A stretch of 64,000 nt of DNA from Octopus vulgaris (Eukaryota): NCBI GenBank assembly GCA_951406725.2, contig OX597829.1, positions 13,950,001 through 14,014,000 on the forward strand, in the 5' to 3' direction. Under the pieces are notes generated by a model that was given only the letters and a program-made list of their open reading frames with translations, was not told the origin of the DNA and did no database searches. The translations under genes and the position numbers were made by a program. The stretch's first letter is position 1; every line of letters starts with the position of its first letter. Positions 2,745 through 46,598 of this stretch are shown here, one piece after another.

Positions 2745-3317
2745 CAGATATACATACATACACACATACATTCATATATATATACCCTCTCTGAACTTAG
2801 CTAATATCATGATATTAATATATATTTTTAGTTACCAAATTTTAGGTTCATTGTCCTCTTTGTTTGTTTGTTTGTTTGTGTATGTGTGTGTGTGTGTGTG
2901 CGTGTGTGCGTGTGTGCGTGTGTAGTTCTATGGCGTAGCAGTGTATACGAGGATAGAGAGCAATAAGTGTTAAATAGTTTTATCAATAATATTTTTAGAT
3001 TTATCTCACTTGATGTTCTCATTTCCACACAGATAAATATTGCAATAATTTCAAGTAATTGTTGTATAAGTCGTTACTCTTTTCGCCTCAGGTCAACTTT
3101 GCTCTTACAAGATGTAAAAAAATGTCCTACTTTCCTTCAACATTGAATCTTTCCATTCTTCTTCCTTTTCCTGATTCTTATATTTTTCATCTTAGTTTAT
3201 TAAGGATTGACTTAGGCTTTCATACATATATATGTATGCATGTATATACATACACACGCATACACACAAATATATACACGTATTTGTGTGTGCGTATGTG
3301 TCTATGTATGTGTGTAA

Positions 3318-37407: not shown

Positions 37408-38390
37408 GTATATATATATATATTTATATATATATACATATATGCACATTTATATGGATATATATGCGTGTGCATGTATATGTATACATTTATGCATACA
37501 CAAATAAATATGCTTTTGTGCATAAATATATATATATGTATATATGTATGTAATATGTACGTATATATGTATGTATATATACACACATATATTTAGTGCA
37601 CTATACCTATACTATATATATATGCATATATATGTATATATTTATGTATATTTTGTACTATACCAAAACTATAGATATATGTGTGTCTATACATATATTT
37701 GTATGTATATATATAAGTATATATAGCTATATATATACACTTGTCTATATATGTGTGTGTATATCTATAATTATTTTTATATATGTATATATATGTACAA
37801 GTATATATTCATATACATACTTACACACACACACCCATATATATATATATTTATATATACATACATACACCAGAGTATATAAACATGCTATGCATATATA
37901 TATACGCAATATATGAATATATATATTTAGCAACACACACGCAATGTATCTATGTATTTTGGGGTGTGTATCCATACGCATGTATAATATATATATATAT
38001 ATACATGTATACATATACATAAGATACGTATATATTCACACACATAAATATATATACAAACATGCTTAAAATTAAGTACTTGTAGCTATATAATATATAT
38101 ATGAGTGTGCGTATGGTGCGTATATATGAATAAATCCAACTTTATTTATGTGCATATATAATTGAGTGCGTACGTTTTAGTGTGCGTGTGAGGCAGAGTG
38201 AGAGAGAGAGATACAGAATAAAGAGAGATACAGAATTAAGATTGACAATCAAACAGCCCAACAGCCAGACAGTCATATAGAAAGATGAATAAGTGAACTT
38301 ATACATATATTTTTATACGCATGTGCATGTATTCTTTTATTCTTACACACATATATCTTCGCGCGCATACACACACACACAATCTTTTTT

Positions 38391-38426
<36 letters not shown>

Positions 38427-38980
38427 ACTCATCGTGCATTACCATGTCTGCCAGCCTAGATTCGTGTCTCCGCCTACCTCAGCTTGCCTGCTCCGCTAAT
38501 CAGCGCCCAGAAGTAGTTCAAACCCTACCCGCCATATCCATCAGTCTATGCCTTGTAATAAAATAGAGAGAGAGTTTTGACAATTCTCCCTCCTACCTAT
38601 ACTTTCTCTCTTCCTCTTTCTCCTTCTTTCTTTCTCACAACTCTTCTTACAATGACTCTTTCTCTCTGACTCTCTTCCTCTCCCCCTCCCTTGCTGTCTT
38701 TCACCTGTTTTTCTCTCTCTCTACCCCTCTCTTTCACTTCTTTCAACAGTTCTTTTCTCTCTTTACTTGTCACACTCCAAAGCTGATGTGTGACGGCGAT
38801 ATTTCAAACTGCTGCTTCGGCCATCAACCAACGAACAGGAGGCGTGTCTCTCTTTTTCACTATCCCGCACTCTTTCTCTTTTACATTTTCCCCCTATTGT
38901 CCTCTATATCTGTTTCACTGCCTGTCAGATATTCAGTGTGTGCAAAGCTCTTTCTCTTGATAATTCAGGTCTTAACGGAA

Positions 38981-39000
38981 GCCAGCGCCATCTAGCGAGA
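38981..39000 (-). promoter_or_regulatory. Candidate CTCF site 1
   Basis: Minus strand TCGCTAGATGGCGCTG matches the CTCF core CCRSYAGRKGGCRSY with one mismatch. Confidence 0.55.
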
Positions 39001-39381
39001 GAGGCGTGTCTCTCCCCTTTCTTTTTTTCTCTCTCTCTCTCCCTCTCTCTCACTCCCACTCTCTTTCGTACATGTTTCTCACACGTAACACTCATTCTTT
39101 CTTTATTCCATTGATCGCTCTCACACCCTGCCTTTCCTTTTATTTCACCCTCACTCTTTCTTACTCTCATACTCACTCTCTTTGTCACACACACACAGAC
39201 GCACGCGCGCACACACACATTTACATATATGGAGACATGAAGATGCACACATTTCTTTATCCTCTCTCTTTCTCTGTCTACTCCACGTTTTTCATCCCCC
39301 TCTGTGTTTTCCTTTCCTCATTCATTTCTCTCCTGTCTTTTCCAAAGGGTCTGATGCTAATGCTTAATAGCCTGAACTGCT

Positions 39382-39401
39382 GCCAGTGCCATCTAGCGGG
39401 A
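39382..39401 (-). promoter_or_regulatory. Candidate CTCF site 2
   Basis: Minus strand CCGCTAGATGGCACTG is a full match to the CTCF core, in the same orientation as site 1. Confidence 0.65.
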
Positions 39402-39637
39402 GAGAGGGGCGGTGCCTGTATTCTTGTATTTCTTTTTCCCTCACATTCTCTTCTCACTCTCTCTTTACCTCCCCCTCTTCCTCTGTCGTTCAATCTCTCT
39501 CTTCCTCATTCTCCCTAACTCTATCTTCACAGTCTGTCTGTGCACGAAGCTTCTCTCGGTATATTTACCAAAGGGTCGACCCTGATGGTGATATTCACAA
39601 CCGCCGCGCTCGGCAGAGTGGTTTATATGTTGCCGTC

Positions 39638-39954
39638 GCGGCCGTAAGCTTTTGTTTGTTTGTTTGTGGACCCACAGAATATATACAGAACCAAAAAAAA
39701 AGGGGGTTACCCCTGCCAGCTACCGAGAGTTCGTACTGGAGGCTACCCGAGGATTACTACCACTTCACACCTACTACTAATATTACTACTACTACAATTA
39801 CCACCATCACCACCTCCATATCCAACAACGCCTCCACAAACGACAGTCAACAACATTGCCGCCACCATCACCGCCACAACCACACCGCTGTTGCTGATAC
39901 TACTACCACCACCACCACCGCCACCACCACCACCACCACCACCACCACCACCAA

Positions 39955-39985
<31 letters not shown>

Positions 39986-40297
39986 GCCGCTCCTGCTGCT
40001 AATGCTGTTACTACCTTCACCATTCAACACCACAACCACCACCATCACAACTACAGCTCTACTACTGCTACCACTACTGTCACCTCCACCACACCACCAC
40101 CACCACTACTGTCAAGTGAACAAACACACTGCCACTGCGGACGTAGGATTGTTTATTTGTGGATCTAAAAGCATACAGAACTGGGGAAAAAAAGGGGGTT
40201 GCCCTAGCCAACCAGTGAGAGCGTATAACAAGCAACCTACCTGAGGATTTTACAAACTATCTCTACTGCTACTACTATTACGGTCATCATCCACCCC

Positions 40298-40337
<40 letters not shown>

Positions 40338-41116
40338 GCCGCACCAACATTAACAAATAGACAGTCATATCTACATTATCAACAACAAAAACAACAACCA
40401 TAACAACGACAACAACAATTACAAAAATAACAATTGTCATAACTGCTATCACAGATCGAACTCGCTGCTTCCATTGCAGCCGTAAGATTTTTCATTTATT
40501 TTATATTATTATTATTATTGTTGTTGTTGTTATAATTTCTACTTCATTTTTGTTGTTTGTAAAACCACACAGAAACGGGTTGTCTCTCATTTAATCTCAC
40601 TCTCTCCGTCTCTCTGTGTATCAGCCATTAGTGGACCCAACTACAGTAAACAGAACTGAAAAAGTGGGGTTACCCACCTTGCCAGCTGTTGACAAGTACG
40701 CCGTGCAGTCTCTGTACCATTACCTATCAAACACAACACGCTACCACCACGGCCGGAAAGTGTTGTGTTTTTATTCTTGTTTATTTTTTTTCCTTCAATA
40801 TTTTTCTATTTTATTGCTGCAATATACATACTTGAAAGGGGTGTTAAGCACCATTACCAAAAATATCAGTGGACCTTACATATACAGTCGAGAAAATTAA
40901 AAGAAGGTTACCCCTGTTTTTGAAAGCGCGTATTGGAGATTACCAGAGGATTTACACACACATTCACAACAACCGAATACGCGGCTGCTACAGCCGTAAG
41001 GTTTGTTTGTTTGTTTGTTTCATTCATTTGTTTGTGAACACTAACTTTTTCTATAAGGTAGTCTCTGCTTCAGGCAGAGACTTAAGAAAGCGTACTGGAG
41101 GTTAGCCAAGGTTTAC
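39638..41116 (+). repeat. Five diverged tandem copies of a ~120-nt ordered module upstream of FoxA (about 39638-39757, 40137-40253, 40476-40700, 40750-40956, 40991-41116)
   Basis: The order GCCGTAAG / TGTTT tract / GTGGACC / ACAG / hairpin / CGTA(C)TGGAG / AGGATTT is shared. Copies are separated by unrelated trinucleotide-rich spacers. Confidence 0.8.
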
Positions 41117-41133
41117 ACCACCAACAGCCCAGC

Positions 41134-42435
41134 ATGCTGTCTGCAAAGACACCGTATGATGCTGTCAGCTCAAACAATTACGCCATGACTACAATGCCCG
41201 GCATGAACAGTATGGGCAATGTAGGGTCAATGAATATGTCAAACATGGCTTATTCCCATCAGCCGATGTCCAACATGACCAGTATGAACCCGTCTCTTAG
41301 TGGGATGAGTATGAGCGGTATGGGAATGCATGCATCGATGGGAGCAATGAATTCGATGAACGGTATGGGTGTCGGGTCGATGGCACCGGTCAACGGCGTA
41401 GGGGTAGGATCTATGGGAGTCGGTTCGATGAACCCTGTCAATGGAGTTGGGGTCGGATCAATGCGAGGAGTTGAACTCAATATGAACAGTATGAATCGAG
41501 CCCAAGCGATGCGAGCCCGTGACAAGACGTACCGACGCAGTTACACCCATGCTAAACCCCCCTATTCTTACATCTCCCTCATTACTATGGCCATCCAACA
41601 GTCCCCCCAGAAAATGTCCACCCTCAGCGAGATCTACCAGTTCATCATGGACCTCTTCCCGTTCTACAGACAGAACCAGCAGCGCTGGCAGAACTCGATC
41701 CGGCATAGCCTATCATTCAACGATTGCTTTGTCAAAGTGCCTCGGACGCCCGATCGTCCGGGAAAGGGCAGCTATTGGACCCTACACCCCGACTCGGGAA
41801 ACATGTTTGAGAATGGGTGTTATTTGAGGAGACAGAAACGATTTAAATGTCCTAAGAAGGAAGCCATGAGACAGGCGGCACGATCTGCAGCAGTGACCGG
41901 GGGTGGGTCGGCGGGTGGGTCGGGAGGAGGATCTGGACCTAGTCAACAAGGTTCCCCTGACCCTTCTCTCAACGATGACAGCCCCATTTCCGACTCACCC
42001 GGTCGCCAGGGAGATCTACATGTCCAACCGAAAAGCGAGATATCGCCCGCAGCTGCTGTTGCTCCGGTATCCCTAAACGCGTTCCAACAACAACAGCAAC
42101 AACAACAGCAACACACCGCCAATGACCTCCACGCCGCAGCTGCTGCGGTCCGACACATGCACCATGACGTCACACACAGCCTGTTGACCGGAAGCCATCA
42201 CCTCGGTAACCACCATCCCCACCACCCACATTCTTTCGATCACCCTTTCTCCATCAATAACCTCATGTCTGAGAGTAAACTTGACATGAAGCTTTACGAA
42301 CCGGCATACGGAGTAGCGTTCAACAATCAGCTTACCTCCACCCCTACCCACCACCCACACTCTACACCCCCGCCACCGATGTCCGATGGAAGCTATTACA
42401 AAACATATACGCCTCATTCAACTTCTAACTTGTAA
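41134..42435 (+). CDS. FoxA: Forkhead box protein A (HNF3/fork head orthologue), 433 aa, uninterrupted CDS
   Basis: FoxA-diagnostic forkhead domain [22 protein letters not shown]...[28 protein letters not shown]...[18 protein letters not shown] (~41533-41850). Also a Met/Ser/Gly-rich N-terminus, a Q9 tract and the C-terminal eh1/region II motif HPFSINNLM. Confidence 0.98.
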
Positions 42436-43008
42436 AATACACGTTTCACACACACACACACAAATACACGTAAACATATATATATATGTGTGTGTGTGTG
42501 TATGTATGTGTATATATATATATATATGTATGTATGTATGTATGTTTTTGTGTTTTTGTGTGTGTGTGTACGTATATATATATATATATATACACACACG
42601 CATACATACGCACACATAAGAAAATAACATCTAAAAAGAACATTAATTCCCCACCCACCCATCACTCTTCTCTCTGAAAAAATGCAACTGCAAAATTGAA
42701 ATATAAATAATATTAAAAAAATTGACTGGGTGGGATTGTTAGGGTAGCACTGCTATCGACTCTTTATCCACGTACTTATATTAAATGCTACCTATCACTG
42801 TCACAATGGATATTATTTACAATAAGAAAGGATAAAAAAAAAGAGGGGAGAAACAGGAAAGTGAATACTTTTATTAACAGTCTCTCTCCCCCTACACACC
42901 ACACACACATACACACACACACATATACCCACATATTTCCCTCTCCCCTCTTTCTAACTCCCATAAAAAAACAAAGAAACAAAATGAAACAATCACGCAA
43001 ATCATTTA

Positions 43009-43073
<65 letters not shown>

Positions 43074-43474
43074 ATTATTATTATCATGATTATTATTATC
43101 ATCATCATCATTATTATTATTATTTTAAAGACTTTGAATTTCTGTGTAAAGAATAACAACAAAAGAAAGGAAGAAAGAAGGAAAAACGGAAGAAAGAACA
43201 CGAGAAAAGTCTTAGAGGAAGAAGTCTCTCGCAATGTCACACCTAACCCTTACTAATATCATTTACCATTTTCACATATTCACATGACTGATCCCTTATC
43301 ATGATATACTTGTAAAAAAAATTGGCTTCATAAATATGGAATCTCTATTATCTCATACACACGCATATATGCATACACATACACGCAGGCACGCAGAGAG
43401 GCAACCATACAGTCAGGTATACGTTCACATACACACACGCACACAAGCCTATATATATGTGTCTGTGTGTGTGT

Positions 43475-43505
<31 letters not shown>

Positions 43506-43568
43506 CACACAATTCACTCATATAAAGAAAAATTGTAAGTGGGTTTGATAGGGAATAATACCCTCACG

Positions 43569-43625
<57 letters not shown>

Positions 43626-43711
43626 CTCAACAATTCCTATGACTATCTTTTTATTCCGTCTTTCCCTCTTTCTCTCTCTCTCTCTCTCTCTCTTCCTAAA
43701 TATACACGCAC

Positions 43712-43746
<35 letters not shown>

Positions 43747-43905
43747 CACATGTCCACACACACGCATACACACGCACACGCACACACATAGCACATGATC
43801 CAATAATGGGCTTTAAGGAAAAGACTTGTTGATGTTGTTGTTGTAGTCAATGTTACTTAAACTTTCCTTTTCTCTTCTTTTCATTAACCACATTAATATT
43901 TTTAC

Positions 43906-43959
<54 letters not shown>

Positions 43960-43976
43960 CATTATTATTATTATCA

Positions 43977-44081
<105 letters not shown>

Positions 44082-44405
44082 GTGTTGTTAGTATTAGTAT
44101 TAGTATTATCGCTATTTTGCAAGAAAGAAAGAAAATAAGACTAATCTTGAAAGGAACAAATACATAAAAATCTTCGTATTAAAATTTTGAAACTTGTCAT
44201 GTAAAACTGGTGTATTAGGTACAGTGACCGAACGTCTGAATCACCCACTGTGCACCAATCACTGCTATTGCAATAGAAAGAAAGAAAGAAAAAGGAAAGA
44301 AAGAAAGAGAGAGAGAGAAAGAAAGCATAGAAACGTTCAATATTTTACAAAACATTTCCATTATGGAACTTGTAAAAACAAAACGTTGGTAACAACAACA
44401 ACAAC

Positions 44406-44461
<56 letters not shown>

Positions 44462-44752
44462 TAATAATAATAATAATCTTTACTTCTTTTAATTGACATA
44501 ATTGACTATTGACTATTATTTGATAAAATGAAATTATTCTTAATACAACCTTTCTCGAAACATTTAATTTTGTTTTACTAAAATTAAATGAAGAATGGAG
44601 GACAAAAACAATGTCATTTTTATAAAAACAACCATCAACTTACTATGACCATATCTGCCATTACAACAACCACGACTTTTATAACCGATACTAACAACAT
44701 CAACACTAAGACGTTTCACACGACTACCAATCACCTCGATATTTTATACACA

Positions 44753-44805
<53 letters not shown>

Positions 44806-44975
44806 ACACCTCATAGTTAAAATCATAGCATAAAATAATTTATTATATGTAGTTCGACCAAAACAAAAAATTCATTTTTTAACAATTCTCAAAATATGAC
44901 CTACCAGCTACGGTCATTAAGATTAAAGCAGCAGCAACACCAATAAGAGAAACAACAGGTACCACATTTTTATAT

Positions 44976-45025
<50 letters not shown>

Positions 45026-46598
45026 TATAAATATCTTGGCCATCATTTCTTGTAACTCAGACTCAGGGCTTAACATTTTAACAGGGTAGCCAAAAGGTGA
45101 GAATAAATGAAAAGTAAACTGAAGGAAGGATATGTTTAAAGATGCTATCATCCCAGAGTCCCTCCCAACCGAATATTCATATAACATCAACAACAAACCT
45201 ACACCAACTACAACAACAAAACATACAAAACTTCTACAGCAACAACTACAGCTACCGCCCAAAATAACTAGGAAGGGTTATATTCTCAATAATTAAAGGG
45301 TAGACTCGATCTTGTACGGGGAGAAAATATTTATCATTCATCTTTTTCTTTTACTTTTTTTTTTGCTTTATTTTGTAAATATCATCATCATCATCATCAT
45401 CCTCCTACTCATCATCATCATCACTGTTATTATCATCTCTATTAACATCATCGAGATAATTATCAACAATGAGATAGACATTAGTTTGCCTCCTACAAGC
45501 CGTTACATTCGACATAAACACCATTTCATTTTTAATGTGGCGCTAGCGACGTTAGGAAAGGCATGAATAATAGAACATTTTTTAATTTTCTTCTGTGACT
45601 TTTTGAAATGAAAGCACTGGCGAGGTGATCGAGGAGGGGCGGACAAAATACTTTGCGGTATTTGTAACTAAGACGAATCCAAATCCCGCCGAGGTCGACT
45701 TTGCATTTCATCCTTCCACGGCCGACAAATTTAGCACCATTCAGGTATTGGAAATCAATATAATTGACCATTCCCTAAACACAATATTTCCGGCTTCATA
45801 CCTGCGTTAGAAACTATTACAGTTTTGCTGTTATTCTTATTATCGACTATAAAATGACATTTTAATGTTGGTAAATGAAGCAGACGAATAGAAACCCCAC
45901 CAAAGCCTAAATTAAACGTCACGGGTTCAGTTTTCACACAATTCTGTATGTTTCTCGTCACTTTCATTGCATATGCTACTCAGAGATGGACATTTTGTAT
46001 TTATTCACCTTTTCAAAACGTCTCAATATTGTATCCTCTGCTCCGCACACATCGCAAACATTATTTTTACAAGGAAGCATACACAATGTGTATGTACACA
46101 CACACGCACACACACATTTATTCGTTTACGTGCTTGTAGAGACACACGCAAACATTTATAAGTATGTATGTTTTTGATATTTATTTAAGTTCTTCTAATG
46201 AGGGTTCAAGACAGTCGTTAACTAAGTGACAAGACATTAAGACAATTCCGGGTATGTAAATACGTGTCAGAGTTAGGTGTGCATAAATACATGTAGTTGT
46301 ATGCACCTACATGTTTTATCTGAACTACATGTTCTGCGTCAGCATGTCTCCTTAGTAGTTAAGTGTTTCTGCGTGTGCGCGTCATTATATTTTATATATA
46401 TATTTTTATAGAAGCACACAATGAAGAGTATAATCTTTGTTTATTATATGCTACATAAACTTTAAAGTCCGATATGTGTTCATTCATATACATATATCTA
46501 AATATGGGTGTATATAAATATACATTACATATACACATATTCACATGCCTTAAGATATGCATATATACATACAGTATGTGGATGTGTCAATGAATGCA

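What the first reader, a model, noticed from the sequence alone, without database searches (positions are those of the whole stretch)
39638..41116. Five-copy ordered module array directly upstream of the FoxA start codon: candidate undescribed cis-regulatory or 5'-leader RNA system
Seen: the same motif series recurs five times in the same order. U1 39638-39757: GCGGCCGTAAG..TGTTTGTGGACCC..TACAGAAC..AGGGGGTTACCCCTGCCAGC..CGTACTGGAGGCTACCCGAGGATT. U2 40137-40253: GCGGACGTAGG..TATTTGTGGATCT..TACAGAAC..AGGGGGTTGCCCTAGCCA..GAGCGTAT..CTACCTGAGGATTT. U3 40476-40700: GCAGCCGTAAG..(~140 nt)..GTGGACCC..ACAGAAC..GTGGGGTTACCCAC..GCCAGC. U4 40750-40956: CGGCCGGAAAG..(~105 nt)..GTGGACCT..TACAG..AGGTTACCCCTG..CGTATTGGAGATTACCAGAGGATTT. 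U5 40991-41116: CAGCCGTAAG..TGTTTGTGAAC..hairpin..GCGTACTGGAGGTTAGCCAAGGTTT, ending ~17 nt before the ATG. The spacers are unrelated CAC/TAC/CAT/CAA simple repeats, while the motif blocks persist. I saw no copy elsewhere in the window, and no TIR, TSD, Pol III boxes or tail. Inference: an old tandem amplification of one regulatory unit with selection on the blocks. It could be serial promoters, a multimerised enhancer, or structured RNA elements in a long 5' UTR controlling FoxA dose. I do not recognise it as a described element.
Basis: partly seen in the sequence, partly recalled or inferred. Interest (0 to 1): 0.88.

Follow-up and report, generated by a model that had tools for sequence, protein, structure and literature searches.

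The report
Repeated modules in FoxA's long leader
Five old, diverged copies of one sequence module sit just before the start of the gut-patterning gene FoxA, found nowhere else in this probably octopus genome, and they likely lie inside an unusually long messenger-RNA leader where they would limit how much FoxA protein is made.

Summary
The array is real. U1 matches U2-U5 at z 7.7-16.6, and a profile built from three units finds the four held-out half-units as its best other hits. It is locus-specific: no search found a full module elsewhere in the 2.8-Gb genome. There is no Rfam match, and this scan had no earlier look-alike.

New evidence: contigs of four guessed-RNA runs (four studies) cover the modules unspliced and run from U3 into the FoxA frame. 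The 1,504 nt before the start hold 1 ATG where 17 are expected. The array therefore likely lies in a 1.6-1.8 kb scanned 5' leader, not mainly in serial promoters.

Each unit begins with a six-codon stretch ending in a stop (4 of 5) after CCG (4 of 5); in U1 this closes two real AUG uORFs. Small hairpins show weak covariation. A second four-copy array with CTCF-like sites lies upstream.

Best reading: a repeated translation-damping leader cassette (0.42). Rivals: a multimerised DNA-binding module (0.33) or a neutral relic (0.2). Other cephalopods could not be examined.

The parts
41134..42435 (+). FoxA coding sequence, single exon, 433 aa
   Evidence: ORF; Pfam Forkhead_N, Forkhead, HNF_C; start matches the start of FoxA relatives
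39346..41133 (+). Inferred long unspliced 5' leader (5' end between about 39300 and 39560, uncertain)
   Evidence: Guessed-RNA contigs; DNA runs go on upstream; 1 ATG in 39630-41133 against 17.4 expected
39627..39757 (+). Module U1, most complete: AUG uORF MLPSRP-stop (39627-39647), U/G-rich run, GTGGACC (39666), ACAGAAC (39685), hairpin 39701-39714, last block 39732-39755 with CTG in strong context at 39736
40126..40253 (+). Module U2: head ends in TAG (40144); last block interrupted and holds the TGA that closes the uORF from ATG 40002
40465..40700 (+). Module U3: head (stop 40483), about 140-nt insert, core from 40631 with hairpin 40664-40677 that has two double changes against U1; last block missing
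40738..40956 (+). Module U4: head without stop (GAA at 40756), about 105-nt insert, core from 40869, last block 40929-40952 with TTG in strong context at 40933
40979..41116 (+). Module U5: head (stop 40997), different 10-bp hairpin 41060-41082, last block 41091-41114 whose CTG at 41095 is in frame with FoxA and open (13 extra codons)
39585..39647 (+). 20-codon AUG uORF, in frame with the AUG at 39627 and ending at the U1 head stop
40002..40244 (+). 80-codon uORF from the only ATG inside the array (weak context)
39761..40472 (+). Two A/C-rich spacers (39761-40133, 40257-40472), G 6%
38777..39620 (+). Second array V1-V4 (38777, 38944, 39342, 39568); V2 and V3 carry a CTCF-like site (38986, 39387; consensus recalled); likely promoter-level

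Best explanation
Five tandem-duplicated modules precede the FoxA start codon, likely inside a long unspliced mRNA leader that ribosomes would scan from end to end, where each module would act as a repeated brake on translation. Shown: the array, its confinement to this locus, the lack of ATG, and contigs that run unspliced from U3 into the FoxA frame. Inferred: a scanning ribosome first meets two AUG uORFs that end at the U1 head (CCG then TAA). It would then pass up to four more heads where ACG or CUG codons could open a six-codon frame ending in a stop, small GC hairpins that slow scanning, and a CUG/UUG in strong context near the end of U1, U4 and U5. In U1 and U4 that codon opens a dead-end frame of 14 or 34 codons; in U5 it would give FoxA with 13 extra residues. 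The U/G-rich run and the invariant blocks would bind RNA-binding proteins. Module number would thus set FoxA dose after transcription.
For: Contigs of 4 of 4 guessed-RNA runs (4 studies) lie on U1 and U2, and single contigs bridge 40544 to 41227-42440; none of the listed joints has GT..AG ends. Two studies' contigs stop at 39346 and 39349 where DNA contigs go on to 39231 or beyond: a weak hint of a 5' end. ATG is the most depleted of 64 triplets in 39630-41133: 1 against 17.4, p 5e-7. The 1,132-nt ATG-free stretch is the second longest of 11,176 intervals in 242 kb; in 18 of 18 other TF loci the nearest upstream ATG is within 510 nt. This argues for scanning across the whole array. Heads read MLPSRP*, TLPLRT*, LLPLQP*, TLPPRPE and TRLLQP*. 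CCG as last codon is the mark of reinitiation-blocking uORFs in yeast GCN4 (PMC4793210 passages). Central hairpin: 3 of 5 pairs show a double change, 16 of 500 shuffles reach this, and all slid registers score lower; the U5 hairpin has p=0.002. The head pairs with upstream sequence in U1 (p 0.007), U5 (0 of 300 shuffles) and U3 (0.02) in the better of two window sizes.
Against: The runs are only guessed to be RNA, and contigs give no strand or start. Continuity from U1 to U3 is not shown, because contigs break at microsatellites, as DNA contigs do. The uORF signal is weak: near-cognate codons are common, C-Y-R triplets give Leu/Pro by composition, TAA to TAG is a common transition, and U4 has lost the stop. 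Whole units fold no better than shuffles. The helix I proposed between GTGGAC and the last block has probability 0-0.02. Head hairpins are not significant in U2 and U4, and the central hairpin alone is not significant in U1, U2, U3 or U4 (p 0.055-0.245). One of the three double changes comes from U5, whose hairpin is not homologous. Template switching can make such changes neutrally (general knowledge). No relative carries the 13-residue extension motif (0 of 152 proteins; probably few are cephalopods). The GTGGAC, ACAGAAC and GCCAGC blocks are unexplained. Lack of ATG shows a leader, not that the blocks act as RNA.
Confidence: 0.42

Rival explanations
1. The modules are a multimerised DNA-level regulatory unit (downstream promoter or first-exon enhancer). 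The blocks are transcription-factor sites: TGTTT Fox-like sites for autoregulation, a palindrome GGGGTTACCCC, and others. They are transcribed only because they lie downstream of the start site.
For: Blocks of 7-24 bp with variable spacing look like binding-site footprints. The same locus has multiplied a clearly DNA-type unit just upstream, with CTCF-like sites. Conserved Hox 'leader IRESes' turned out to be promoters with TF sites (PMC9456764 abstract). Rodent L1 monomers are tandem 5' UTR units with transcription signals (PMC5381506 passages). No fold of the whole unit is supported. TF assignments are recalled and were not scanned.
Against: Hairpin covariation and a new hairpin at the same place in U5 are not needed for DNA binding. 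ATG is purged across all five units, so most mRNA likely includes them and they are not the main serial start sites. The last block is not enriched in the genome: 15 matches against 57 for the reversed control.
Confidence: 0.33
2. The array is a neutral relic. Old local duplications of the FoxA leader decayed, slippage replaced the A/T-rich parts with microsatellites, and GC-rich blocks survived. The only selection is against AUG.
For: Units are only 41-63% identical, and each has lost or broken some block. The clustering of conservation is modest (4% of neutral simulations reach it). The leader is full of microsatellites.
Against: A 24-nt block is kept within one degenerate pattern in three units whose neighbouring sequence cannot be aligned. 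Core length from GTGGA to the last block stays at about 75-85 nt while the head-to-core distance varies from 22 to about 155 nt (positions). No comparable array in 18 control TF loci: at most 2 similarity clusters against 6 here.
Confidence: 0.2
3. The heads are weak 5' splice sites (GTARG followed by a U-rich run) that bind U1 snRNP or define small retained introns, in the manner of regulated 5' UTR intron retention.
For: GTAAG or GTAGG follows GCC or GAC in 4 of 5 heads, a U-rich run follows each, and U5 has CTAAC, a pyrimidine run and AG about 60 nt later.
Against: No GT..AG joint in four guessed-RNA runs, and contigs cross U1, U2, U4 and U5 unspliced; contigs drop rare forms. Candidate introns of 37-45 nt in U1 and U2 are very short. 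The conserved GCRGCC and the later blocks are not explained.
Confidence: 0.05

Closest known systems
Yeast GCN4 leader, uORF3 and uORF4 (PMC4793210, passages read)
   Same: Several short uORFs in a long leader of a transcription-factor mRNA; CCG as the last sense codon, shown there to cut reinitiation by about half.
   Different: GCN4 uORFs start with AUG and are not copies of one unit. Here only U1 has an AUG; the others would need ACG or CUG, and each sits in a 130-240 nt duplicated module with further blocks.
Mouse and rat L1 5' UTR monomer arrays (PMC5381506, passages read)
   Same: Tandem units in a 5' UTR in front of an ORF.
   Different: L1 monomers are near-identical promoters in a mobile element with many copies (general knowledge). 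These units are 41-63% identical, single-locus, in a host developmental gene, with microsatellite spacers.
TYMS enhancer-region 28-bp repeats (PMC7712088, PMC3320636; search listing and start of abstract only)
   Same: Repeats in a 5' UTR whose number modulates expression; both DNA-level and translation-level effects are discussed (the latter recalled).
   Different: A young, near-perfect polymorphic repeat of 28 bp, not an old multi-block module.
Hox 'hyperconserved transcript leaders' (PMC9456764, abstract read)
   Same: Conserved blocks before a developmental TF start codon, with RNA and DNA readings in competition.
   Different: Those regions were rarely in the transcript. Here contigs and ATG depletion place the array in it, and the lack of AUG argues against IRES-type entry.
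Xist repeat A (recalled, no call)
   Same: GC-rich conserved units with small hairpins, separated by low-structure linkers.
   Different: Repeat A lies in a non-coding RNA with short, very similar units. No Rfam match here.

Membership tests
Dispersed transposable element (SINE, MITE) | Copies at many unrelated loci | tested here: not met
   DNA searches give only this locus. Patterns: 3 of 3 and 3 of 3 hits here. The 16 outside hits of looser patterns hold no module: best 19.3 bits against 61-109 for the training units. Very diverged copies could be missed.
7SL-derived repeat | Similarity to the genome's own SRP RNA | tested here: not met
   0 of 18 comparisons above the shuffle maximum
Known Rfam RNA (ribozyme, riboswitch, snRNA, snoRNA, miRNA, IRE, SECIS) | Match to a covariance model | tested here: not met
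   75 matches at E<=5 in 37500-43000, none at gathering score; the few inside the array lie on low-complexity spacer or insert sequence
Long scanned 5' UTR | Present unspliced in the mRNA | tested here: inconclusive
   Contigs of 4 guessed-RNA runs cover it and bridge U3 to the ORF; library type, strand and start are not on record
Long scanned 5' UTR | Depletion of upstream AUG | tested here: met
   1 against 17.4 expected; controls
GCN4-type regulatory uORF leader | Short AUG-started uORFs | tested here: not met
   Met for U1 only; 4 of 5 heads lack an AUG
GCN4-type regulatory uORF leader | CCG last codon before the stop | tested here: inconclusive
   CCG-stop in U1, U3 and U5; ACG-stop in U2; CCG without stop in U4. 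Not distinguishable from plain nucleotide conservation.
GCN4-type regulatory uORF leader | uORFs are translated and control the main ORF | not testable with these tools
   Needs ribosome profiling and reporters
Conserved structured RNA element | Shared stable fold with covariation | tested here: inconclusive
   Only a 5-bp hairpin is shared; whole-unit z not significant
Multimerised enhancer or L1-type monomer promoter | TF occupancy or transcription start within units | not testable with these tools
   No ATAC, ChIP or CAGE data; contigs cannot show starts
Conserved non-coding element | Block conservation in other species | not testable with these tools
   No cephalopod relative held. Eight metagenome Fox loci of unknown animals lack the motifs (six also scanned with the model). 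Organism B runs are nearly identical to the window.

The most novel reading that the evidence does not exclude
An undescribed RNA control module (non-AUG Pro-stop uORF, U/G-rich protein site, hairpin, strong-context CUG) was multiplied five times in the FoxA leader, so that copy number tunes translation of a pioneer factor and the last copy makes a CUG-started longer FoxA. A separately multiplied CTCF-type unit upstream would tune transcription: one gene with two stacked amplification arrays.
Probability: 0.2. Interest if true: 0.8.

Novelty: new variant of a known kind. Interest (0 to 1): 0.5.

Why it matters
FoxA is a dose-sensitive pioneer factor of the gut (general knowledge). My searches found no description of a cephalopod FoxA leader or of non-AUG or uORF control of FoxA. 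Five natural variants of one module in one leader give a ready-made series for separating RNA-level from DNA-level control. If the RNA reading holds, it shows tandem duplication building translational control of a developmental regulator, the way it is known to build enhancers.

Tried and rejected
No listed sequencing run is on record as RNA; the four laid are guesses. They give no cover at 38825-39259 where DNA runs do, and run X23 (guessed RNA, same study as X1) has almost no cover on the FoxA frame. Missing cover is not evidence by itself. Contig depth rises from the first leader contig to the ORF in all four runs, but depth cannot rank parts of a gene and I did not use it.

Rejected:
- 7SL origin.
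- Hammerhead, HDV-like, H/ACA, U1/U6-like and group II domain V readings: recalled resemblances of a few letters, with no Rfam support.
- A long helix closing each core.
- Coding origin: indels between blocks break the frame (positions), and the translated U1 frame has no relative.
- A common origin of the U and V arrays: profiles do not cross-hit beyond E 5.4.

Led nowhere:
- Protein searches for cephalopod leader sequence: 2 hits without extension and 0 hits.
- Viral contigs: 0 matches.
- Two masked self-BLAST controls were too insensitive, missing the U array itself; one search replaced them, with a score threshold that I chose.
- The covariance model could not be run over the whole genome. 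It was run on the window and on 41 fetched loci.
- Many of the 18 control loci have unknown exon structure, so their 'start codons' are first ATGs of an open frame.

Full report
Setting. The window is G000:C16:13950001-14014000 in a 2.8-Gb genome. The ORF at 41134-42435 is FoxA (Forkhead_N, Forkhead, HNF_C). My start pattern matched 45 of 152 fetched proteins, and 43 of those matches are N-terminal starts like this one.

Observation. Six of ten pairs score z 5.0-16.6 over shuffles and four score 1.3-3.6. A profile from U1, U2 and U5 finds the held-out halves of U3 and U4 as its four best other hits in 64 kb. Identity is 41-63%. Conserved columns cluster (autocorrelation 0.23, p 0.007), a level reached in 4% of 150 neutral simulations. 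Three DNA runs reproduce the sequence. Units are incomplete in different ways, and the head block is about 12 nt longer than reported.

Distribution. DNA searches with U1 and with U3b-U5 return only this locus. Two block patterns give 3 hits each, all here, with 0 in controls. Looser patterns give 3, 1 and 12 outside hits, none with a module under the covariance model. The model finds nothing in 18 other Fox and homeobox loci, and a window-pair scan finds at most 2 similarity clusters there against 6 at FoxA. There is no Rfam family, no 7SL similarity and no earlier look-alike in this scan. It is not an ordinary transposon.

The array likely lies in the mRNA leader. Contigs from four runs of four studies, guessed to be RNA, lie on 39297-42440. 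They break at microsatellites where DNA contigs also break, and at 39460-39547 in two runs. Single contigs run from 40544 to 42440, 41929, 41901 and 41227, and no listed joint is a GT..AG intron. Two studies stop at 39346 and 39349 where DNA contigs continue, a weak hint of a 5' end at the start of unit V3. Independently, ATG is the most depleted triplet in the 1,504 nt before the start (1 against 17.4). The 1,132-nt gap ranks second of 11,176 in 242 kb, and all 18 control loci have an ATG within 510 nt. I infer a 1.6-1.8 kb leader scanned from end to end. This argues against an IRES and against U3-U5 being the main promoters.

What the module holds. Head: six codons ending in a stop in 4 of 5 units, with CCG in sixth place in 4 of 5. 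The first codon is AUG, ACA (CUG next), CUG, ACG or ACG. In U1 the stop closes two AUG uORFs of 20 and 6 codons. In yeast GCN4 a terminal CCG cuts reinitiation by about 45-55% (PMC4793210, passages). After the head come a U/G-rich run, GTGGAC, ACAGAAC, an A run, a hairpin, GCCAGC and a 24-nt last block. That block holds CTG or TTG with G at -3 and +4 in U1, U4 and U5; these are 3 of 9 such sites in the leader, and only U5's is open into FoxA. The hairpin shows two double changes between U1 and U3, and U5 has a new 10-bp stem nearby. The two long spacers are A/C-rich with 6% G; the first is predicted 79% unpaired and the second 56%.

Limits. None of the uORF features exceeds what plain nucleotide conservation would give. 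Whole units are not unusually stable, my closing helix failed, and no relative shows the extension. Three blocks remain unexplained.

Second array. Four copies of a different unit lie at 38777-39620. A profile of V1 and V3 finds V2 (E 5e-4) and V4 (E 0.22) as its only other hits, and the V2/V3 pattern is unique in the genome. V2 and V3 match a recalled CTCF consensus: 3 matches in the window against 0.17 expected. CTCF-like motifs are reported at cephalopod loop anchors (PMC13652810, passages). This array is probably promoter-level and shows that the locus multiplies DNA elements too, which keeps the DNA reading of the U array alive.

Mechanism and odds. I commit to a repeated translation-damping leader cassette (0.42). 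Rivals are a multimerised TF module inside the leader (0.33; precedents PMC9456764 abstract, and PMC5381506 passages), a neutral relic (0.2) and splice-site or U1 use (0.05). RNA and DNA roles need not exclude each other.

Novelty. Searches returned listings only, none describing this element. The library lacks most subscription papers, and I read no supplements. The parts resemble known kinds, but the arrangement in a FoxA leader appears undescribed: a new variant of a known kind, interest 0.5. Conservation in other cephalopods is the missing test.

Noticed in passing
window 38777-39620: Second degenerate four-copy array with CTCF-like and GC-box-like sites, unique in the genome; the tail of V4 can pair with the head of U1 (predicted -23 kcal/mol).
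   Followed up: partly
window 40548-40590 and 40825-40865: The inserts of U3 and U4 contain faint echoes of core blocks and a GGTGT/GCACC hairpin; they may be further decayed units, but the profile did not pick them up.
   Followed up: partly
window 41364-41467: A 48-nt tandem duplication inside the FoxA coding sequence (GVGSM..PVNGV repeats), also present in protein P0001.
   Followed up: no
G000:C5:143067398-143116046 (L016-L018): A tandem cluster of at least 13 full-length SRP (7SL) RNA genes; at least 25 copies in the genome.
   Followed up: no
L023 and L024 (G000:C26:34889107 and 34955208): Two near-identical 40-nt matches 66 kb apart in opposite orientation, perhaps an inverted duplication; unrelated to the module.
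   Followed up: no
L042, minus strand near 3082: A 1,135-nt ATG-free stretch at a homeobox locus; whether it is leader or coding sequence was not checked.
   Followed up: no
window 38001-46000: GC skew is negative in seven of eight 1-kb bins on both sides of FoxA (down to -0.45); only the coding bin is near zero.
   Followed up: no
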